Source: a virus. Taken from it: 64,000 nucleotides of DNA. This document shows positions 8,486-47,280 of the stretch, piece by piece. The notes beneath the pieces are model-generated. The model saw only the letters and a program-made list of their open reading frames with translations, was not told where the DNA came from and made no database searches. The stretch is from positions 1-64,000 of IMG/VR virus record IMGVR_UViG_3300050120_000169; one strand, 5' to 3'. The translations under genes and the position numbers were made by a program. Each line of letters opens with the position of its first letter. Positions within the stretch are counted from its first letter, which is position 1.

Positions 8486-9297
8486 TGTCTACGTTTTATG
8501 AAGTGCTTACCGAGGCGGTGGCGGACATCGTTGAACACGGCTTCGACTCGCAAAAGCGCATTGATGACTGGTTGGTAAAGATCCGACAGGCAGCTATCGG
8601 TTCGCTGATTCCACAGCACAAGTTGGAATTGATGGTGCGCAAGAATTTTGTAGACATCTACCAGCGCATGGTCGTGAAGGGCGGGATCCTAAAGCACCAT
8701 AAAGGATTGAGTCAGTTCACCCTCGATAGGGTGAAGCCAAAGCTCCGCAATGAGCTTGACCGGCACATTATGGCTAATGCCAAGCTGATCACGCTGAATC
8801 GAGAAGCTGCGGTTGAAACCACACTTCGACGCTTTGCCGGGTGGTCTACCAGTATTCCGTCTGGTGGCACGAAGGCAGCAGATAAGCTGGCAACGAAGAC
8901 TGCTGTACGGAAGTCCCTGGCGCAATTGCCATTTCAGGAGCGCAGGGTTGCGATTGACCAGGGGCACAAGTTTATTTCGTCACTGAATCAAGTGCTGGCA
9001 GTAGAGCACGGGGCGTTGGCAGGGATTTGGCACAGCCATTGGCGGCGTAAAGGGTATAACTACCGGCCCGACCACAAGGAACGCGACCTAAGGGTTTATG
9101 CAGTGCGCGGTAACTGGGCGTTCGAGAAAGGGTTGATGAAGGTCGGCCCTGATGGATACACTGATCAGATTACCCAGCCTGCTGAAGAAGTGTACTGCGA
9201 GTGTTTTTACCAGTACGTGTATAACATCCAGGATTTGCCAGAATACATGCTCACGGTTAAAGCCAAGCGCGCAATCATGAAGGTGGAAACGGTATGA
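8485..9297 (+). CDS. Head morphogenesis protein (SPP1 gp7/Mu gpF-like)
   Basis: RRVAIDQGHK, WHSHW...YNYRPDHKERD, QPAEEVYCECFY; directly after portal. Confidence 0.75.
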   Translation: MSTFYEVLTEAVADIVEHGFDSQKRIDDWLVKIRQAAIGSLIPQHKLELMVRKNFVDIYQRMVVKGGILKHHKGLSQFTLDRVKPKLRNELDRHIMANAKLITLNREAAVETTLRRFAGWSTSIPSGGTKAADKLATKTAVRKSLAQLPFQERRVAIDQGHKFISSLNQVLAVEHGALAGIWHSHWRRKGYNYRPDHKERDLRVYAVRGNWAFEKGLMKVGPDGYTDQITQPAEEVYCECFYQYVYNIQDLPEYMLTVKAKRAIMKVETV

Positions 9298-12281
9298 CCA
9301 TCCGAGAAGAAATGCAGAAGTGGCTGGACAGCCAGAAGCTTAAAGCCGAGCGCGATGCTTGGATGCGATCTAACACCCGGACTGATTCGGATTCAGAGGG
9401 GCGGTGGGTAACCATCAATAACACCCATGTATTGATTGGCAAGGACGGTCGAATTAAGAGTGGGGCTGAAGGGAAGTTCAACGGTCAAACCGAAGCGCAA
9501 ATGAGTAAAGGTGAAGAAGCCAAGGGCGGGGGTAAGGACGCCCCGACCGAACCCGTAACAGTTCAAAAGGCTGGTCCCGATACGGGGAATAAAAAGATTC
9601 CGGCACCTCCTGGCAAGGAGGAAGGCAAGTCAGGGGCGCAAGAAGAACCCCCGATTGCTGATGATCTGGGCGATCTGAATAAACAGTTGACGGAAGCTCA
9701 ATCTGATTTGGCGGTAAAAAGAAAGGAATTGCAAAAAGCCGGAGAGGGTGGAAAAGCAAAAACCACCGCCCAGGTGAGTGCCGTAGTTGAAGGCAACAAG
9801 GCGGTTGCGGCTGCTCTGGCGAAAGTAGATAGGATCAAGACACGACTGAAAACTGCTGCCCAGGTGTCGGAAGCCATGCCGACTGCCAATCCCCAAAACG
9901 AGATCAACAAACAGAAGCAGGAAGCGCAGGAAAGTGGGAAGCAGGAACAAGATTTCCAGACTCAGCAGGAAAAGGACAAGCGCGAACACGAGTTGAAAAA
10001 AGAGGAAATGAAGTCCGCTGCTGGCAAGGAGTCTGCTCCAGGCCCGACCACGACCACCGAAAAGACGACGGAGAAAGTGGCCGCGAATGGGGGGAAGACC
10101 GTTACCAAGGAAGCGAAGACTGAAACCGCTCCTGCCCCGGCTGAGAAGAAATCAGCGGAGAAACCTGCTGAAAAACCGGCGGAAAAGAAGGAAGAACCGG
10201 CTGCGGAAGATAAGGACCGACCAAAACGGTGGGACGGTACTCCGAATCCCCCCGGGGCATTGGAGACGGACCCGCCAGAAGAACGTGAAGCCTATTTAAA
10301 GAAGGAATTGGCTGAGACCGACGCGGAGTACAAGAAGTTGAAAGCGGCCTCGCCAGTCGATTGGAAAGCCATACACAAAACTAGTGATTACGAGCAAAGT
10401 TTAAAGGTGTCGTTAAAACGGCATCAGGACAAACAAGCGGAAGATGCGGCTGTGGCTAAAGACCCGTCAACCATTACTGCGGCAGAGAAATCGGCTGTCA
10501 AGGTGTATTCGTCTGCCAGCTATGAGTCCATAAACAAGCAATTGCGCTCTGGGAAAGAAGAAGCTGGGGGGATGTATAACCACGAGATAGGCGTACTCGA
10601 TGCTGCGTTGAATAAAAAGACGCTACCCACTGGCACGAAGTTGAAGCGCTATATTGACGCGGCTGGGATTAAGCAGCTATTCGGCGGCGAACCCAAGGTA
10701 GGCTCGGTGGGTACGGACAAGGCATTCATGTCCACTTCAGATTCTAAGACCTGGGAAAAGAATGAGCACCAGTTAGTGATGGAAACTCCGGCTGGACAGA
10801 AAGGGTTGAAGCTGGGCAACTTGAGTAAATACGAAGAAGAGGGCGAAGTCCTGCTGCCTCGCGGTACTTCGTTGAAAGTCACGAGCATCGGCACCAGCAA
10901 GGGTAAGAAATTGATTAAGTGTGAAATTGTGCAGAATGGAGACACCAAGGCAGATTCTGTGCCGGGAACCGCTCGTGACGCGCAAGAGCAATGCACCCGC
11001 CTTACGCCCATGGAGTATGTACAGGCAATGATGGCCCGCTGCCACGGCGCGGGGCTATCGGCTACCCGCATCATGATGGCGAAGAAGGCATTTCTGGAAA
11101 CACACGGGGAAACGCCGCAAACTATCGAGGAATACAGTGCGGGCATCGGCCAGCGATTCTTGCTGGCGCTGCTCAATGAATTCGGCATTCCTTCGATTGA
11201 AGAAACCGTTGACTGGTTTAACCGTACAGAAGCGCGGGCGGATGCTGGGGTCGTGCAATTGGCGGTGCCTGTTGGGGAGAAAATTGCCGCTGGTGTGTTG
11301 TTTATCACTGACAGTGGTTATATCCTCTTGGGCCAACGCGCAGAACCGGGGGAGTACCAGGGTCACTGGGGCATTTTTGGTGGACACGCGGAACCGGGCG
11401 AACCGCTTGAACTCACGGCTATGCGTGAAGTGCTGGAAGAAACAGGCCATGAAATTGAACAGAGTCAGATAGAGGGCGAGGCACCGCCGTTGCAATTGAT
11501 TGCGGAAACCGAACTAGACGGTACGAAGTTCTCGTATTTCATCAACGTGTGTAAGCCCTTCGAAGTGCGGTTAAACGACGAACACACGACCTATGGCTGG
11601 TTTGCTATGGGGGCGATGCCAGAGCCGTTGATTCCCGGTTTGCAGGAAGTAATCGACAGCGATTTGGTTAAAGGCCTGCGGCTGCGCAAGATGAATGAAA
11701 CGGATGTGGCGCGGGCGATGGCCTGGGGTGCGTTGCCCTCACCTATGAAGTTTGCGAATGTCAGCATGTACAAGATGCGGATTACTGGCACGGGCGCGGC
11801 ATTTCGTAGTGGTCAGCCAGAAATCAAGAATGCTGATGGCAAGGTTACGCAGGTAGCACTCAAAGACGAGCATTGTTTCCGCCCGCCCGAGCACTATCTT
11901 AATGAGGACTTTCTTGAGCGCTGCCAGGGCTTGAACCTGATTTTTGAACATCCGAAGAAACGAATTTTGAATTCCAAGGAGTTCAATGATCGGAAAGTTG
12001 GGAACATAGTACAGCCCTATATTTGGGGCGATGAGGTGTGGGGTATCGGCAAGGTGTACGACCAAGACACCATCGATATCCTAGATCATGAGGTGATGAG
12101 CACCAGCCCTGCTGTGCAATTTGGCGACAATGACGGGAATACGATCATCCCCCTCAGTGACGGGTCGCAAATGTTGATTGAGGGTAAGGCCCGCCTGCTC
12201 GACCACTTGGCTATCTGCGAGCAGGGGGTCTGGGATAAGGGCGGGCCGCCTACCGGAATTATTTCCGAAAGTGCGAAATAG
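9294..12281 (+). CDS. Multidomain head protein: ADP-ribosyltransferase + Nudix hydrolase + DUF2213-like prohead protease
   Basis: ART: YESINKQLR, LKR, FMSTS, EGEVLLPRGT; Nudix box GGHAEPGEPLELTAMREVLEETG; protease: RITGTG, RPPE.YL, EHP, STSPAV, LDHLAICEQGVWDKGG. Confidence 0.85.
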   Translation: MTIREEMQKWLDSQKLKAERDAWMRSNTRTDSDSEGRWVTINNTHVLIGKDGRIKSGAEGKFNGQTEAQMSKGEEAKGGGKDAPTEPVTVQKAGPDTGNKKIPAPPGKEEGKSGAQEEPPIADDLGDLNKQLTEAQSDLAVKRKELQKAGEGGKAKTTAQVSAVVEGNKAVAAALAKVDRIKTRLKTAAQVSEAMPTANPQNEINKQKQEAQESGKQEQDFQTQQEKDKREHELKKEEMKSAAGKESAPGPTTTTEKTTEKVAANGGKTVTKEAKTETAPAPAEKKSAEKPAEKPAEKKEEPAAEDKDRPKRWDGTPNPPGALETDPPEEREAYLKKELAETDAEYKKLKAASPVDWKAIHKTSDYEQSLKVSLKRHQDKQAEDAAVAKDPSTITAAEKSAVKVYSSASYESINKQLRSGKEEAGGMYNHEIGVLDAALNKKTLPTGTKLKRYIDAAGIKQLFGGEPKVGSVGTDKAFMSTSDSKTWEKNEHQLVMETPAGQKGLKLGNLSKYEEEGEVLLPRGTSLKVTSIGTSKGKKLIKCEIVQNGDTKADSVPGTARDAQEQCTRLTPMEYVQAMMARCHGAGLSATRIMMAKKAFLETHGETPQTIEEYSAGIGQRFLLALLNEFGIPSIEETVDWFNRTEARADAGVVQLAVPVGEKIAAGVLFITDSGYILLGQRAEPGEYQGHWGIFGGHAEPGEPLELTAMREVLEETGHEIEQSQIEGEAPPLQLIAETELDGTKFSYFINVCKPFEVRLNDEHTTYGWFAMGAMPEPLIPGLQEVIDSDLVKGLRLRKMNETDVARAMAWGALPSPMKFANVSMYKMRITGTGAAFRSGQPEIKNADGKVTQVALKDEHCFRPPEHYLNEDFLERCQGLNLIFEHPKKRILNSKEFNDRKVGNIVQPYIWGDEVWGIGKVYDQDTIDILDHEVMSTSPAVQFGDNDGNTIIPLSDGSQMLIEGKARLLDHLAICEQGVWDKGGPPTGIISESAK
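11490..11505. repeat. Dispersed palindrome copy 3
   Basis: TTGCAATTGATTGCGG, in CDS. Confidence 0.9.
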
Positions 12282-36580: not shown

Positions 36581-36597
36581 GCCTCAATGGAGTGAGA

Positions 36598-42524: not shown

Positions 42525-42971
42525 ATGGCGGTGAACCGTTACAGTCACCCTGTACACGGCATGAAGGGAACGCCGACTTATCAATCATGGGAATCCATGA
42601 AGCGGCGTTGCAAAGACCCGAAGAAGAAATATGTTCAGCGCGGGATTAAAGTTTGCGAGCGCTGGGAAAGTTTTCTGAATTTTTTGGCAGATATGGGGAT
42701 TAGGCCAGAAGGCACGACCTTAGAACGCCAAAATAATGATAAAGGTTATGCGCCTGGAAATTGTATATGGGCCACCATGAAAGAGCAGTCAAGAAACAAA
42801 ACTTCAAATGTTTTCTTGACGTTTGACAATGAAACTCTATGTACAGCCGACTGGGCTAGAAAAACTGGTATCAGCCATAAGGTGATTCGGGAACGAGTCA
42901 ACCGAGGCTGGTCCGTAGAAGATGCACTAACAATTAAGCCCGTAGTCGGAGCAAATAGTCATGGCTGTTAA
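42525..42971 (+). mobile_element. HNH-type homing endonuclease
   Basis: TYQSW.SMKRRC, RGIKVCERW.SF..FLADMG.RP, TLER.NND.GY.PGNC.WAT. Confidence 0.8.
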
Positions 42972-44256
42972 TCTCGGTCTTCGGGCGATTCGTCGCCTCT
43001 GCGAACAACAGGAAACATACGAGTGGTATAAGTCAAAACTGAGTCCGTTGTTGTTTAAACCGAACGAACAGCCAGTTTTTAAGTGGGTTGACGATTTCGT
43101 ACGGACTCACCACGCACTACCTCAAATCGATACGTTGGTGAAATACTTCCCCGCCGTGGCTGATGTCCCGGCGACCGAAGTAGCTAGTTATTACGTGGAC
43201 TTGCTGGAGAACGATTACTGCTTTTCGAAAATCGTGCAGTGTGGTCAGGATAGTGCCAACCTACTGAAAGAGAATAATGCGGCCTGGAAGCCAGCCGCCG
43301 AGATCCTGCGGCGAACGCTTAACGACATTTCCCGCCAGCAGTATCGGGAAAAGATTATGGATTTCGGAGCCGAGGCCAATAGTTTGTTGACCAAGACCTA
43401 TTACGGCTTGGAGAAAGTGCCGAATATCAGCGGTTTTGGCTGGCCGTACATGGATGAAATGGGTGGGGCGATGCCCGGGGACGTGGTGAGCTTCATTGGA
43501 CGCCCACAAATGGGTAAGTCTTGGCTCACGTTGTACACCGCGCTACATAACTGGCGAGTGCGCAAGCACAGTGTGTTGTTCGTCAGCATGGAAATGAGTC
43601 ACTTGCCAATCGCCCAACGTGCGGCGACGATGATTGCCCACACGAATTTGACGCAGTTAAAGCACGGGCACCATTCGGACAAGGGTTATTCGACGCAGAC
43701 CGAGAAGCTGTTTTTCTCCAGTATGGAGACGATCACCAGTCCAGTCGAAGACGGTGGCGCACGGTTGTACATTGTTGACGGTAACCTAGCAGCGGACATG
43801 GAGGACATCTTCTCCCTGGCTGATCAATTGGGATGTCAGACGGTGATTATTGACGGCGCTTATCTTTGCCGCCACAAAAACGGACGCCTGGACCGATTCA
43901 CACGAGCGGCTGAAAACTGCGAAAGCATGAAGCGCTACAGCAATGACCTGATGCTCGCCAGCTTTGCTAGTTGGCAGTTCAACCGGCAGGCGGCGGATAA
44001 GCAGAAGAAAAAAGGCGGCACGGCTGAAATTGGGTTGGAAGACATCGGGTACTCGGATGCCATTCCCCAGATCAGTAGTATCGTGCTGGGGCTATTCCAA
44101 GAAGACGGGGTGGAGACTATGACCAAGAAAAACATCCGGGTCATGAAAGGCCGGGGTGGCGAGGTAGGTGAGTTCGACATTGGGTGGGATTTCAACACTA
44201 TGAATTTTGATCAAATCGGGATTAAGACCGAGGATTTTCAAAATATTTATATTTGA
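42961..44256 (+). CDS. DnaB-like replicative helicase
   Basis: GRPQMGKS, VLFVSMEM, VIIDGAYL, QFNR, IGYSDAI.Q, MKGRGG. Confidence 0.9.
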   Translation: MAVNLGLRAIRRLCEQQETYEWYKSKLSPLLFKPNEQPVFKWVDDFVRTHHALPQIDTLVKYFPAVADVPATEVASYYVDLLENDYCFSKIVQCGQDSANLLKENNAAWKPAAEILRRTLNDISRQQYREKIMDFGAEANSLLTKTYYGLEKVPNISGFGWPYMDEMGGAMPGDVVSFIGRPQMGKSWLTLYTALHNWRVRKHSVLFVSMEMSHLPIAQRAATMIAHTNLTQLKHGHHSDKGYSTQTEKLFFSSMETITSPVEDGGARLYIVDGNLAADMEDIFSLADQLGCQTVIIDGAYLCRHKNGRLDRFTRAAENCESMKRYSNDLMLASFASWQFNRQAADKQKKKGGTAEIGLEDIGYSDAIPQISSIVLGLFQEDGVETMTKKNIRVMKGRGGEVGEFDIGWDFNTMNFDQIGIKTEDFQNIYI

Positions 44257-44280
44257 CAAATATCGAATTCGGCTTATAAT
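44253..44280 (+). promoter_or_regulatory. Sigma70-type promoter
   Basis: Consensus TTGACA-16 bp-TATAAT. Confidence 0.8.
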
Positions 44281-44470
44281 GCAATCTGGTTGGGTGGCGG
44301 ATTGCGCCGGAACCCCCAGGCGGCTGGGTGTCTCCCGTGCGATTTGCCGCTCGACCGCCTTAACAAGTGCGGTTAAGCGGATAGGTTGTTTGATCATGCC
44401 CACCTGGGGGATGCCCAGGGGTTGTATGGCTGGCAGGCTGTCTACTTAACCGCATTTCAACCTCAATGGA

Positions 44471-45274
44471 GTGACTATGACCGTATTACATGAATTACTT
44501 GCAGCAGAAAAGACGGTGACCAGTGCGCGTGACCGCCTCACCGAAGACACAGACAACAAGTTCGGCAAGCAGGAATCCTTCTTTACCGGGGGCACCAAAA
44601 CCCTCGAAATGTTGGGTGACGATCAAGCCAATAAGTCCATCGAAGCCGCAGCGCGGGCCGACAAGGAACTGGCAACCACTGTGGTAGCGACACTTGACTA
44701 CTACCTGACGTATTGGGCCAAGGCCGAGACGTTACTGGCGCAAAAGAACCTGACCAATACCCGGGCACTGGCTGACCTCGAATTTCGCGGCACCACGATT
44801 GCCAACGATGTACCGGTTGACGAACTGATGGGCCTGGAAGTGCGGCTGACGGATTTTCGTAAGCTGGCTTTGCGGATCCCCACGCTCGATGCCAGCCGGG
44901 AATGGCAGTACGATACGAGTGCCGAGCAACAGGGCACCTATCGGGCGGTCAAGCCTACTGTTACGACCAAAACCGAGAAGGTGGAAGTACCGGTTATTCT
45001 GGTGCAACCGACCAAGGAACACCCGGCACAGGTCAAGATCAGTAGCGCGGACAAGGTGGTGGGCACGTTCACGACCCAGCATACCAGCGGCGCTATTGCG
45101 GCGATTCAGAAGGCCAATTTGCTGGCGGTGATCGATGATCTGATCATTTCTGTCAAGGCCGCCCGGGTGCGTGCTAACTCGGTAGAAGTCAGCAAGGTCC
45201 CGGGTTTGGGCGAAACGATCAAAACACTGTTGATGGAGCCGTTGAAGGCGGCCCCGATCAACAATGCGGTATAA
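44471..45274 (+). CDS. Helical phage protein of unknown function, directly upstream of the tRNA-like RNAs
   Basis: LHELLAAEK, IPTLD, KEHPAQV, VKAARVRAN. Confidence 0.65.
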   Translation: MTMTVLHELLAAEKTVTSARDRLTEDTDNKFGKQESFFTGGTKTLEMLGDDQANKSIEAAARADKELATTVVATLDYYLTYWAKAETLLAQKNLTNTRALADLEFRGTTIANDVPVDELMGLEVRLTDFRKLALRIPTLDASREWQYDTSAEQQGTYRAVKPTVTTKTEKVEVPVILVQPTKEHPAQVKISSADKVVGTFTTQHTSGAIAAIQKANLLAVIDDLIISVKAARVRANSVEVSKVPGLGETIKTLLMEPLKAAPINNAV

Positions 45275-45288
45275 ACAGTAAGTGCGAA

Positions 45289-45460
45289 ACAGGTAGCGTT
45301 ATCGTTATAGTTGGCGTCGGGTTAGGTTGGTTCGAATCCAACCCGTCCCGCCAAGTTTTCCGCAATTAACTGCGGAGGATTTCACGGGACGGTGGCCGAG
45401 TGGATACAGGCCCACATGCGAATGTGGAAAGACCCAGTTTATGATTTTCGTATCACCTGT
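45289..45460 (+). ncRNA. Circularly permuted tRNA-like RNA 1 (Y RNA/YrlA-like topology)
   Basis: T-arm 45326-45342, CCGTCCC-G-CCA 45343-45353, then GGGACGG 45386-45392 and D-arm; ends pair ACAGGT/ACCTGT. Confidence 0.65.
45360..45375. repeat. Dispersed palindrome copy 12 (variant)
   Basis: CCGCAATTAACTGCGG, in loop of tRNA-like RNA 1. Confidence 0.8.
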
Positions 45461-45462
45461 CA

Positions 45463-46186
45463 GCATTGTCTTATGCAACAGCGGCAAAAGTAGTCCGGCA
45501 AGCAGCTTCGCGCACCCCTGATAAGAGCGCGAAGCATAAGTCAAGGTCATCGGTTCGAACCCGGTCGCCTCCTCCTGAGTAACTTGTAAAACTATGAATG
45601 CTAAGCAGTACATTCTTGACCGGAGTTTGGAAATAGGGGATTGCTGGATATGGCAGCAATCTACGGATAAGAATGGTTACGGTTGTGCCTGTTTTAATGG
45701 TGTGTATTTAGGCGCTCACCGGCTTTCATTCATGGCTTTTGTTGGGGAAATACCTTCTGGTATAAAAGTGTTACATACTTGCGATATTCCTTCTTGTGTG
45801 CGACCACAACATCTATTTCTTGGAAGTCATCAAGACAACATGGATGATATGGTTAAAAAAGGGAGGTCTGCCAAGGGTGTGCATATGAATACTGGAAGTG
45901 CGCACGGTTCAGCGGTTTTGACGGAAGACCAAGTTTTACTAATTCGCAAACTTTGTGAAGAAGGTAGGTCACAAAATTCAGTGGAAAGAGAATTTGGATT
46001 GTCCAAAGGACTAGTGAATAAAATAGTGCGTAGAAAACTATGGACCCACATATAGGTTACTGAGCGGAGGCGTAGCTCAGCGGTAGAGCATTGGCTAATT
46101 GAGTTATCGTAACTGGCTTGGATGTGATGAAAAACGCAGTTGGGTGAAAGCCGAAGTCCCCAGCAGGAGTCGGGCATGACAAATGC
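45463..46186 (+). ncRNA. Circularly permuted tRNA-like RNA 2 with HNH gene in the acceptor-stem loop
   Basis: T-arm 45549-45565, CGCCTCC 45566-45572, then GGAGGCG 46066-46072 and D-arm TAGCTCAGCGGTAGAGC; ends pair 45463-45476 with 46174-46186. Confidence 0.6.
45594..46055 (+). mobile_element. HNH homing endonuclease with C-terminal HTH
   Basis: CWIW, GYG, AHRLS, VLHTCD.PSCV.P.HL..G...DNM.DM..KGR; AT-rich. Confidence 0.9.
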
Positions 46187-46245
46187 GCGGGGGCTTTCTA
46201 ACTGGCCTTGGACACAGGACCGGGCAGAAAGCGCACTTCAATGGA

Positions 46246-46434
46246 GTGACCGTGATTGATACCACACAAACCCCGTATTACAAGGGTTACAAAGCCTTCC
46301 TAGATTACAACCGGGGCGATACCCCCATGCCTGACAACCCATTTGTAGAAGGTAGCAATGATTACGGGCGGTGGGTTGATGGGTATGGCGATGCTCTTGG
46401 CGACTGGGAAGCCTGGATGGAAAGCGATATTTAG
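46246..46434 (+). CDS. Small protein with Rmf-like motif
   Basis: YYKGY.A...NPF..GS..Y..W.DGY; GGAG RBS near GTG starts, start codon uncertain. Confidence 0.45.
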   Translation: MTVIDTTQTPYYKGYKAFLDYNRGDTPMPDNPFVEGSNDYGRWVDGYGDALGDWEAWMESDI

Positions 46435-46443
46435 GAGCAGCAC

Positions 46444-47280
46444 ATGGCATTGAATTTTGTTGGTGGTAAGCCGGTAAAAGTGGATAAGAAGATTATCCCT
46501 GTTGAAGAAATAAAAACCCCCGCTCCCCCTCCTTCGGGGGACTTCAAGTATTCGGATAAAGAACTGGCCGCGTTCCTGCTTGAGCAAGCACAGCAAATCA
46601 AGGCTGCGACTGCTGTACCGGGTTCGTTGTTGACCGCACAAGAACCGGAAAAGATACCGATCTACGTCAATGTTACGCATACAGTGGCCCCCGCCCCCTC
46701 GATTTTTGGATCATCGGGCATTCTAAACAACGAATTGTATGCCCAAGGCGTCACGCCACCCCCCGGGACGGTATTGGCCGATGGCACGACCACGTACTTG
46801 AGTAAGCTGCAAATCCCCGTTTCGGAATTAACGGTCGAGGACCAAGTAAAGCTTTCTCAGGACCAAGAACCGCAGTCAATTGCGGTGGAACAGGCGCACT
46901 CGGAAGTGCTGACGTTGGTAGACGAGTACACCGAACTGCAAGCGGAAATCGATGCCGTTGACATTTCTGCCCAGTTGAAAGCCCAGGAAACGATCAAAAA
47001 GCGGCTGGCGCAGATTGCCAAATCCGATAATTACCCGTCGAATAAACCCGTACAGCTATGCGGCACGCATGGCAACTACGTGGAGTTCAGCGCGGCGGCC
47101 AACTCGGTGAAGATCACCGACAAGGCGGGTATGGCGATGTATCTCGGTGCGCCAGTGTGGATTGAGCACACCGAAATGACGCTGGCCGAAGCCAAGAAGA
47201 TCCTCAGCGAAAACGAACTTGCCAAGTACACGTCTAACGTCCCGGGTAGTCGGACGCTCAAAACCGTTTATAAGGGGTAG
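46444..47280 (+). CDS. Hypothetical protein
   Basis: ORF with AGGAG RBS. Confidence 0.6.
   Translation: MALNFVGGKPVKVDKKIIPVEEIKTPAPPPSGDFKYSDKELAAFLLEQAQQIKAATAVPGSLLTAQEPEKIPIYVNVTHTVAPAPSIFGSSGILNNELYAQGVTPPPGTVLADGTTTYLSKLQIPVSELTVEDQVKLSQDQEPQSIAVEQAHSEVLTLVDEYTELQAEIDAVDISAQLKAQETIKKRLAQIAKSDNYPSNKPVQLCGTHGNYVEFSAAANSVKITDKAGMAMYLGAPVWIEHTEMTLAEAKKILSENELAKYTSNVPGSRTLKTVYKG
46870..46885. repeat. Dispersed palindrome copy 13 (variant)
   Basis: CCGCAGTCAATTGCGG, in CDS. Confidence 0.8.

What the first reader, a model, noticed from the sequence alone, without database searches (positions are those of the whole stretch)
45289..46186. Two tandem circularly permuted tRNA-like RNAs (Y RNA-like) with no Ro60 gene in view
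Seen: in both elements the tRNA 3' half comes BEFORE the 5' half. RNA 1: T-arm GTTGG-TTCGAAT-CCAAC, CCGTCCC-G-CCA (45343-45353), 32-nt linker, GGGACGG (45386-45392, 7/7 pairs), class II-like D-arm GCCGAGTGGATACAGGC, a GCGA-tetraloop hairpin, and termini pairing (GGGTT/GACCC, ACAGGT/ACCTGT). RNA 2: AGTCAA, GGTC, T-arm ATCGG-TTCGAAC-CCGGT, CGCCTCC (45566-45572), then GGAGGCG (46066-46072, 7/7), D-arm TAGCTCAGCGGTAGAGC, TTGGCT pairing with AGTCAA, and termini pairing (45463-45476 with 46174-46186). Established: bacterial YrlA Y RNAs and two-piece tmRNAs have permuted tRNA-like topology, and YrlA normally lies beside a Ro60/TROVE gene. Inference: these RNAs share a transcript from the 44253 promoter with the unknown protein 44471..45274, suggesting an undescribed protein + tRNA-mimic ribonucleoprotein. 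RNA 1 has an encoded GCCA end that could be exposed by RNase P/3' trimming and aminoacylated.
Basis: partly seen in the sequence, partly recalled or inferred. Interest (0 to 1): 0.88.

Follow-up and report, generated by a model that had tools for sequence, protein, structure and literature searches.

The report
Phage double tRNA-mimic RNA carrying HNH gene
Just after an unstudied phage gene (DUF7873) lies a folded RNA containing two back-to-front tRNA look-alikes, a gene-RNA pair found in many phages and bacteria without the usual Ro60 partner; here a selfish HNH endonuclease gene sits inside one loop of that RNA.

Summary
The motifs are real at the stated coordinates. Both elements run T-arm, 3' acceptor strand, capping loop, 5' acceptor strand (7/7 pairs), D-arm. 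That is the YrlA (bacterial Y RNA) order.

A ~98% identical phage from an independent metagenome has 24 nt there instead, a natural empty site. The claimed RNA 2 termini pairing is not conserved.

A covariance model built only from viral copies finds one or two such modules directly downstream of DUF7873, on the same strand:
- all 24 non-redundant viral loci searched;
- about 75 of 80 cellular loci.

In 150 modules, 99.4% of stem cells pair (43-57% in slid controls). CCA sits exactly after the discriminator in 34 of 150.

The complete 80-kb phage has no Ro60 or RtcB. The Ro-binding motif is not enriched and Rfam YrlA is not reached. So it resembles YrlA but is not a member.

DUF7873 has no known fold and is predicted to form a homodimer.

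This scan has reported the same DUF7873-RNA pair before on other DNA; I found no paper describing it. Transcription, binding and processing are untested.

The parts
44253..44280 (+). Sigma-70-type promoter (TTGACA, 16 nt, TATAAT).
   Evidence: 12 of 12 consensus matches. It is the only + strand promoter call in 44000-46500.
44287..44457 (+). Highly structured 5' leader made of two long hairpins.
   Evidence: MFE -103.8 kcal/mol, z = -7.0. The X4 relative's substitutions keep the pairing: 44406/44416 G-C to A-U, and 44357 and 44425 wobble to Watson-Crick.
44477..45274 (+). DUF7873 protein gene. The ORF list starts it at GTG 44471. ATG 44477 behind GGAG 44468-71 is the likelier start.
   Evidence: Pfam PF25283, E = 2e-59, 201.7 bits. 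The Atlas record starts at residue 3.
45289..45460 (+). tRNA-like module 1. In order: closing helices, T-arm 45326-42, 3' acceptor strand 45343-49 plus GCCA 45350-53, capping hairpin 45354-85, 5' acceptor strand 45386-92, D-arm 45395-411, GCGA hairpin 45412-27.
   Evidence: Sequence. MFE fold, z = -4.9. Model R1 scores 61.3 bits at 45320-45413. Covariation in 13 homologues: 22 of 25 pairs with double changes.
45490..45575 (+). tRNA-like module 2, upstream half. Hairpin 45505-35, anticodon-stem-like strand AGTCAA 45539-44, T-arm 45549-65, 3' acceptor strand 45566-72, then TCC.
   Evidence: Sequence. Aligns with insert-free homologues once the insert is left out. Compensatory changes in X4.
45576..46065 (+). 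Inserted HNH endonuclease cassette. ORF 45594-46055, bracketed by self-complementary arms 45575-88 and 46051-64.
   Evidence: Pfam HNH_3, 46.4 bits against a cut-off of 24.8. PHROG HNH families down to E = 1e-29. An independent 31.8-kb contig joins 45575 to 46066 with 24 other letters. Arm pairing.
46066..46150 (+). tRNA-like module 2, downstream half. 5' acceptor strand 46066-72, D-arm 46075-89, TTGGCT 46091-96, conserved GTTATCGTAAC 46103-13, and the return strand of an outer helix.
   Evidence: Sequence. Alignment with phiRSL1 and seven other homologues.
46153..46198 (+). Terminator-like 3' hairpin followed by TTTCT. Probable 3' end of the unit.
   Evidence: MFE fold. A homologous hairpin plus T-run in relatives, with covariation. 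The simple terminator scan did not call it.

Best explanation
Shown:
- 44253-46198 reads as one unit: promoter, structured leader, DUF7873 gene, then a non-coding RNA of about 440 nt (insert not counted) with two YrlA-type circularly permuted tRNA-like domains, ending in a terminator-like hairpin.
- It belongs to a widespread family of RNAs that sit directly after DUF7873 genes in phages and in many bacterial phyla. The family is not linked to Ro60.
- In this phage, the hairpin that normally caps the acceptor stem of domain 2 has been replaced by a 490-nt cassette carrying an intact HNH homing-type endonuclease gene. The ends of the cassette pair with each other, so the two acceptor strands can still meet.

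Inferred:
- The RNA and DUF7873 work together as a ribonucleoprotein. The protein is probably a homodimer, which would fit one tRNA-like domain per subunit.
- Each domain presents the tRNA 'top half': a 7-bp acceptor stem stacked on a 5-bp T-stem, plus a D/T-loop elbow.
- Host tRNA enzymes probably recognise this top half. By analogy with M. smegmatis YrlA, RNase P would cut at the 5' acceptor strand (46065/46066 and 45385/45386) and the 3' strand would be trimmed or repaired to N-CCA.
- That would yield a base-paired multi-piece RNA. It would also make the capping loop, and the HNH message in it, a disposable spacer.
- What the particle does is unknown.
For: - Anatomy and folds.
- DUF7873 identity.
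- Synteny, by pattern: 27 of 29 viral DUF7873 loci carry 1-2 modules downstream.
- Synteny, by model: R1, built from viral copies only, hits about 75 of 80 cellular loci just downstream on the same strand. Some misses are contigs that end right after the gene. The strict pattern gave 0 hits on the opposite strand of the 80 loci.
- Covariation: 99.4% of 1730 stem cells pair, against 62.5% shuffled and 43-57% slid. All 12 pairs show double changes.
- Empty site without HNH, and compensatory substitutions, in an independent 31.8-kb contig.
- Arms bracketing the ORF.
- Capping loops are hypervariable (3-101 nt, median 13). CCA sits exactly at +2..+4 in 34 of 150 modules, against 0-5 at other offsets.
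- No conserved neighbour other than the RNA.
- No TROVE in this phage or in phiRSL1. TROVE is absent from 2 of 5 carrier genomes and unlinked in the other 3.
- Homodimer prediction: ipSAE 0.67 (median of three runs), best of 3 controls 0.01. Runs agree in at least 31% of contacts and partner pLDDT is at least 65. That mark was reached by 20 of 30 proteins solved as pairs of one chain and by 1 of 23 solved as single chains. My own alignment was used, so these counts hold only roughly.
Against: - No transcript, end-mapping, binding or aminoacylation data exist for any member that I could reach.
- In the closest subgroup, the CC after the discriminator pairs with GG just before the 5' acceptor strand. 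That could explain the conservation of CC without a free CCA end, and it could hinder RNase P.
- Many capping loops are only 3-7 nt.
- DUF7873 has no recognisable RNA-binding fold.
- Domain 2 might be inactivated by the insert rather than tolerating it.
- An earlier later-check note in this scan (e1-2703945) priced the Ro-independent binding claim at only 22 in 100.
Confidence: 0.6

Rival explanations
1. These are ordinary YrlA-type Y RNAs that work with a Ro60/Rsr protein supplied by the host. DUF7873 would be an accessory or an unrelated neighbour.
For: - Same domain order as YrlA.
- phiRSL1 domain 2 aligns end to end with Rfam YrlA at 32 bits, E = 1.7e-4.
- 3 of 5 carrier genomes encode a TROVE protein somewhere.
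- Phage YrlA RNAs are known (PMC4201824).
Against: - No Rfam YrlA hit in the window even at E <= 10. The phiRSL1 hit is far below the gathering score of 69.
- The Ro-binding GNCGAAN0-1G motif is not enriched near the 5' end: 5 of 82 loci against 8 of 82 controls.
- No TROVE in this phage or in phiRSL1, nor in a complete Anabaena chromosome or an Actinomadura genome that carry the pair.
- Linkage is to DUF7873, whereas published YrlA genes lie within 4 kb of Ro60 on the same strand.
Confidence: 0.12
2. The elements are genuine split or permuted tRNA genes, or a two-piece tmRNA-like molecule. After processing they would be aminoacylated and used on the ribosome.
For: - Canonical T-arm, 7-bp acceptor stem, D-arm with GG, and encoded N-CCA.
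- Partial match to the permuted junction of beta-proteobacterial two-piece tmRNA.
Against: - No anticodon loop. Domain 1 has a GCGA tetraloop, and domain 2 is open there and continues into other helices.
- ARAGORN, which finds permuted tmRNA genes, reports nothing. No tag frame or pseudoknots are evident.
- The tmRNA scores of 13.7-24.9 bits are far below the gathering score of 84.
- The phage has ordinary tRNA genes elsewhere, at 74.2-74.7 kb.
Confidence: 0.08
3. Domain 2 is a dead relic in this phage, broken by the HNH insertion. Only domain 1 (or neither) still functions, and the local complementarity around the insert is incidental.
For: - A 490-nt translated insert inside a structured RNA is unique among about 150 modules, whose loops are otherwise 101 nt or shorter.
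- R1 cannot detect domain 2 in the window.
Against: - The flanks stay about 98% identical to the insert-free relative, and the differences preserve structure.
- The ORF is bracketed exactly by arms of 14 nt that keep the acceptor strands together.
- All core motifs of domain 2 are intact.
- If the loop is normally cut out, the insert costs nothing.
Confidence: 0.15

Closest known systems
YrlA, the tRNA-mimicking bacterial and phage Y RNA bound by Ro60/Rsr (Rfam RF02553; Chen et al. 2014, PMC4201824)
   Same: - A permuted tRNA-like domain in the order T-arm, capped acceptor stem, D-arm, closed by a helix formed from flanking strands.
- Often two RNAs or domains in tandem.
- Also found in phages.
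   Different: - No Ro60 gene nearby or in the phage at all.
- No enriched GNCGAAN0-1G Ro-binding motif.
- Below the Rfam threshold.
- Always linked to DUF7873 instead.
- Two tRNA-like domains in one unit.
Mycobacterium smegmatis YrlA, cleaved by RNase P and given CCA in vivo (PMC4201824)
   Same: A 7-bp acceptor stem, which the authors name as the determinant of RNase P cleavage, and a partly encoded CCA. This RNA is the model for the proposed processing into base-paired pieces.
   Different: Processing is shown there by cDNA cloning and an M1 RNA assay. Here it is only inferred from sequence features.
Two-piece (circularly permuted) tmRNA genes of alpha- and beta-proteobacteria and cyanobacteria (Rfam RF01850 for the beta form)
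   Same: The same gene order (T-arm, 3' acceptor strand with CCA, a spacer that is removed, then the 5' acceptor strand). It gives the only Rfam match in the window.
   Different: No tag reading frame and no pseudoknots. It has a true D-arm. ARAGORN finds none. Scores are far below threshold.
Homing endonuclease genes looped out of peripheral hairpins of group I introns (established knowledge, not tested here)
   Same: An endonuclease ORF sits in a loop of a structured RNA, closed by a helix so that the RNA core can still fold. It is present or absent between close relatives.
   Different: The host RNA is not an intron. No splicing is implied, and no group I core was detected.

Membership tests
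YrlA (Rfam RF02553; Chen et al. 2014) | tRNA-like domain in the order T-arm, capped acceptor stem, D-arm | tested here: met
   Sequence and fold. Covariation.
YrlA (Rfam RF02553; Chen et al. 2014) | Reaches the Rfam gathering score (69 bits) | tested here: not met
   No YrlA match in window 44200-46400 even at E <= 10. phiRSL1 domain 2 scores 32 bits.
YrlA (Rfam RF02553; Chen et al. 2014) | GNCGAAN0-1G motif near the 5' end (the proposed Ro60 contact) | tested here: not met
   5 of 82 loci have it within 120 nt upstream of the first T-arm, against 8 of 82 controls. The window has one copy, at 46150 near the 3' end.
YrlA (Rfam RF02553; Chen et al. 2014) | Encoded within about 4 kb of a Ro60/TROVE gene on the same strand | tested here: not met
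   No TROVE (PF05731) in the complete 80-kb phage. None among its large ORFs. None in phiRSL1.
DUF7873-associated double tRNA-mimic RNA (a family defined only by this scan's notes and by my model R1) | One or two permuted tRNA-like modules directly downstream of a DUF7873 gene on the same strand | tested here: met
   DUF7873 at 201.7 bits. R1 scores 61.3 bits at 45320-45413. Domain 2 aligns with insert-free homologues.
Two-piece tmRNA | Permuted order: T-arm, 3' acceptor strand with CCA, spacer, 5' acceptor strand | tested here: met
   Partial beta_tmRNA alignment over exactly this junction.
Two-piece tmRNA | Tag reading frame with resume codon and pseudoknots; detection by ARAGORN or Rfam | tested here: not met
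   ARAGORN reports 0 genes. 13.7 bits against a gathering score of 84.
Canonical or permuted tRNA gene | A 7-nt anticodon loop on a 5-bp stem | tested here: not met
   Domain 1 has a 6-bp stem with a GCGA tetraloop. Domain 2 is open at that place. No tRNA call in the window.
HNH_3 homing-type endonuclease (PF13392) | Pfam domain above the curated cut-off in an intact ORF | tested here: met
   46.4 bits against a cut-off of 24.8. Full-length match to phrog_6254, residues 1-148 on 1-151 of 154.
Permuted group I intron-exon arrangement (considered for RNA 2) | Group I catalytic core split around the exons | tested here: not met
   No Intron_gpI match at E <= 10. Insert-free homologues and the empty site show a short hairpin in the same place.

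The most novel reading that the evidence does not exclude
DUF7873, acting as a dimer, and the two-domain tRNA-mimic RNA form a ribonucleoprotein that does not need Ro60. The RNA's domains are cut by RNase P and matured to CCA ends, giving a base-paired three-piece RNA with two tRNA-like acceptor ends that might be charged or might be targeted by tRNA-directed enzymes. In this phage a homing endonuclease gene has settled in the spacer that this processing discards, so tRNA maturation enzymes would also separate the endonuclease message from the RNA.
Probability: 0.28. Interest if true: 0.8.

Novelty: new variant of a known kind. Interest (0 to 1): 0.62.

Why it matters
tRNA mimicry by non-coding RNAs is so far understood through tmRNA and through Ro60-bound Y RNAs. 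This is a third setting. A two-headed tRNA mimic is tied to one dedicated protein of unknown fold, across Myxococcota, Nostocales, Planctomycetota, Actinomadura, Spirochaetota and many phages, and the searchable literature has no description of it.

This window adds a natural experiment. The loop that caps one acceptor stem can be swapped for a 490-nt gene in one phage and is a 27-nt hairpin in its near-twin. So the loop is either dispensable or removed. That points to specific bench tests:
- RNase P cleavage.
- CCA ends.
- Pull-down of DUF7873.

Cultured carriers such as Ralstonia phage phiRSL1 are available for these tests.

Tried and rejected
1. Permuted group I intron reading of RNA 2 (3' intron half, 3' exon, ORF, 5' exon, 5' intron half). 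I considered it on first reading. I rejected it because there is no group I hit, and because insert-free homologues and the empty site have a plain hairpin there.
2. Assembly shuffle of ordinary tRNA genes. Rejected: the same order occurs in independent assemblies and in more than 100 loci.
3. Expression data. No RNA holder is listed for the stretch; only DNA runs from peat and watershed metagenomes hold it.
4. DUF7873 fold.
- Foldseek against PDB and BFVD gave nothing at E <= 0.001.
- The wide structural search gave at best Z 8.9 to a designed helical protein, within the tool's stated noise for helical models.
- The sequence profile found nothing in PDB.
- PHROGs gave nothing.
- The Atlas returned only DUF7873 clusters.
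- Weak Cas7 rows in Foldseek did not survive the second look.
5. HNH relatives. None of 67 viral loci places the gene inside a permuted tRNA-like element.
6. The 'UAUCGU'-like words in the flanks are confined to this window's subgroup. They are not enriched across the family.
7. Gene neighbours of DUF7873 in cellular genomes are heterogeneous.
8. Weaker R1 hits at 74.2-74.6 kb of the phage are junctions of adjacent ordinary tRNAs.
9. That claim stays unchecked.
10. A 2025 Listeria phage paper that mentions Y RNAs concerns a Ro-like gene, not this system.
11. The weak CRISPR-DR53 match at 46235-46262 (E = 4.1) is the ribosome-binding region of the next gene.

Full report
**What is there**

The window is the first 64 kb of an 80,087-base IMG/VR phage record that CheckV rates complete. 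It comes from peat metagenomes.

- Element 1 (45289-45460) folds on its own into the permuted cloverleaf described (z = -4.9). It has two closing helices, a T-arm, a 7-bp acceptor stem followed by GCCA, a capping hairpin, a long-loop D-arm and a GCGA-capped hairpin.
- Element 2 has the same order. However, its two acceptor strands (45566-72 and 46066-72) are 493 nt apart.
- ARAGORN finds no tRNA or tmRNA in the window, and no Rfam family reaches threshold. At permissive settings the only relevant match is the permuted junction of two-piece beta-proteobacterial tmRNA, at 13.7 bits.

- The 493 nt hold an intact 153-aa ORF, 45594-46055. It is an HNH_3 endonuclease (46.4 bits against a cut-off of 24.8; PHROG HNH families down to E = 1e-29).
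- Contigs of four other public runs were laid on the stretch. A 31.8-kb contig from a watershed metagenome of another study is about 98% identical on both sides. It joins 45575 directly to 46066, with 24 other letters in place of the 490.
- This is a natural empty site, so the HNH cassette is optional. A second, more divergent contig shows a similar short join.
- The cassette ends pair with each other (45575-88 with 46051-64). They bracket the ORF exactly, and the stop codon lies in the 3' arm, so the acceptor strands can still meet.
- The relative's substitutions preserve structure:
  - two double compensatory changes and two changes to G-U in the 45505-13/45527-35 hairpin;
  - U-G to C-G and C-G to U-G in AGTCAA/TTGGCT.
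The 3' partner lies inside a terminator-like hairpin that homologues share.

**Relatives**

- The upstream gene is DUF7873 (PF25283, E = 2e-59). Its likely start is ATG 44477.
- Ralstonia phage phiRSL1 has a homologue, ORF270. It is followed by 484 unannotated bases holding the same two elements. The second has a 31-nt capping hairpin and a sub-threshold, end-to-end YrlA match of 32 bits.
- Among 29 viral contigs with DUF7873, a strict pattern finds one or two modules just downstream in 27.
- I built a covariance model (R1) of the core from 35 viral modules.
  - It hits all 24 non-redundant viral loci searched.
  - It hits about 75 of 80 independent cellular loci from Myxococcota, Nostocales, Planctomycetota, Actinomadura, Spirochaetota and others.
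  - Nearly all of these hits lie directly downstream on the gene's strand.
- The strict pattern gave no hit on the opposite strand of those 80 loci.
- Over 150 modules, 99.4% of stem cells form standard pairs, against 62.5% in shuffles and 43-57% when partners are slid. All 12 pairs show double changes. This alignment is fitted to the model, but independent MAFFT alignments give the same picture.
- Upstream neighbours are heterogeneous, so the RNA is the only conserved partner of the gene.

**Relation to Ro60 and YrlA**

- The phage has no TROVE and no RtcB. None of its large ORFs shows a TROVE or vWA match. phiRSL1 has none either.
- Of five well-assembled carrier genomes, three have a TROVE gene far from the locus. 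Two have none, including a complete Anabaena chromosome.
- Chen et al. define YrlA by three features: a GNCGAAN0-1G motif near the 5' end, the tRNA-like domain, and a position within 4 kb of Ro60 on the same strand.
  - The domain order is met.
  - The motif is not enriched: 5 of 82 loci against 8 of 82 controls.
  - Linkage to Ro60 is absent.
  - The Rfam threshold is not reached.
- So it works like the tRNA-like half of YrlA but is not a member.

**Acceptor end**

- Capping loops range from 3 to 101 nt (median 13). The window's 493 nt is the only ORF-bearing case.
- CCA occupies exactly positions +2 to +4 after the 3' strand in 34 of 150 modules, against 0-5 at any other offset. C at +2 is the majority.
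- M. smegmatis YrlA, the one with a 7-bp acceptor stem, is cut by RNase P and receives CCA in vivo (PMC4201824). Of the 150 modules here, 123 have a perfect 7-bp acceptor stem.
- This makes processing into base-paired pieces plausible, and it would explain why the loop tolerates a gene.
- Against it: in the closest subgroup the CC pairs with GG just before the 5' strand.

**The protein**

- The AlphaFold model (pLDDT 78.5, pTM 0.63) shows four long helices and long beta hairpins.
- No credible structural or sequence relative was found.
- A homodimer prediction passed its controls:
  - ipSAE 0.67 (median of three runs), best of 3 controls 0.01;
  - the runs agree in at least 31% of contacts, and partner pLDDT is at least 65;
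  - the mark was reached by 20 of 30 proteins solved as pairs of one chain and by 1 of 23 solved as single chains;
  - my own alignment was used, so these counts hold only roughly.
- The model supports binding but does not show it.
- A dimer would fit a two-domain RNA. That is inference.

**Prior knowledge**

- This scan has already reported the DUF7873 plus double tRNA-mimic pair on other DNA. One later check priced the Ro-independent binding claim at 22 in 100.
- My own tests agree that the pairing is the rule and that Ro60 is not required nearby.
- No paper in the library contains 'DUF7873'. The Aravind-lab jumbo-phage review mentions only Ro/TROVE with a tRNA-like partner.
- I could not open Burroughs and Aravind 2016.

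**Verdict**

A real, conserved, apparently undescribed variant of the Y-RNA-like tRNA mimics, with a different dedicated protein. This window adds a mobile HNH gene nested in one acceptor cap and a matching empty site. Transcription, binding, processing and function remain untested.

Noticed in passing
window 44287-44457: The ~190-nt leader between the consensus promoter and the DUF7873 start folds into two long near-perfect hairpins (z = -7.0). A 98% identical relative changes it only in structure-preserving ways. Its role (attenuator, processing site or stabiliser) is unknown.
   Followed up: partly
window 44463-44475 and 46238-46250: An exact 13-nt direct repeat (TCAATGGAGTGAC), which is the ribosome-binding region, precedes both the DUF7873 start and the start of the next gene (GTG 46252). 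It therefore brackets the DUF7873-plus-RNA unit, as if that unit had been inserted as a cassette. There is one further 1-mismatch copy at 36584.
   Followed up: partly
L191 12159-13976 (G000 76159-77976, outside the window): The phage's ThyX thymidylate synthase gene is interrupted by an intein carrying an HNH endonuclease domain (Thy1, Intein_splicing and HNH Pfam matches). This is a second selfish endonuclease element in the same genome.
   Followed up: no
window 9294-12281: A 995-aa protein in the structural module, just after the portal gene, combines an ADP-ribosyltransferase domain (ADPrib_exo_Tox/ART) with a NUDIX domain. It may be a packaged host-modifying enzyme.
   Followed up: no
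L001 5554-5677 (phiRSL1 record about 188,800-188,925): An unannotated tRNA gene (Rfam tRNA, 41 bits) with a 62-nt insertion in the anticodon loop lies between ORF269 and ORF268 of phiRSL1.
   Followed up: no
G000 74.2-74.7 kb (outside the window): The phage carries at least three ordinary tRNA genes in a cluster, about 28 kb from the DUF7873 locus. In this phage the mimic is therefore not part of the tRNA cluster.
   Followed up: partly
window 42525-42971: A 148-aa ORF lies between two replication genes and has no Pfam match. From memory, its sequence pattern resembles free-standing phage homing endonuclease-like proteins. I did not test this.
   Followed up: no
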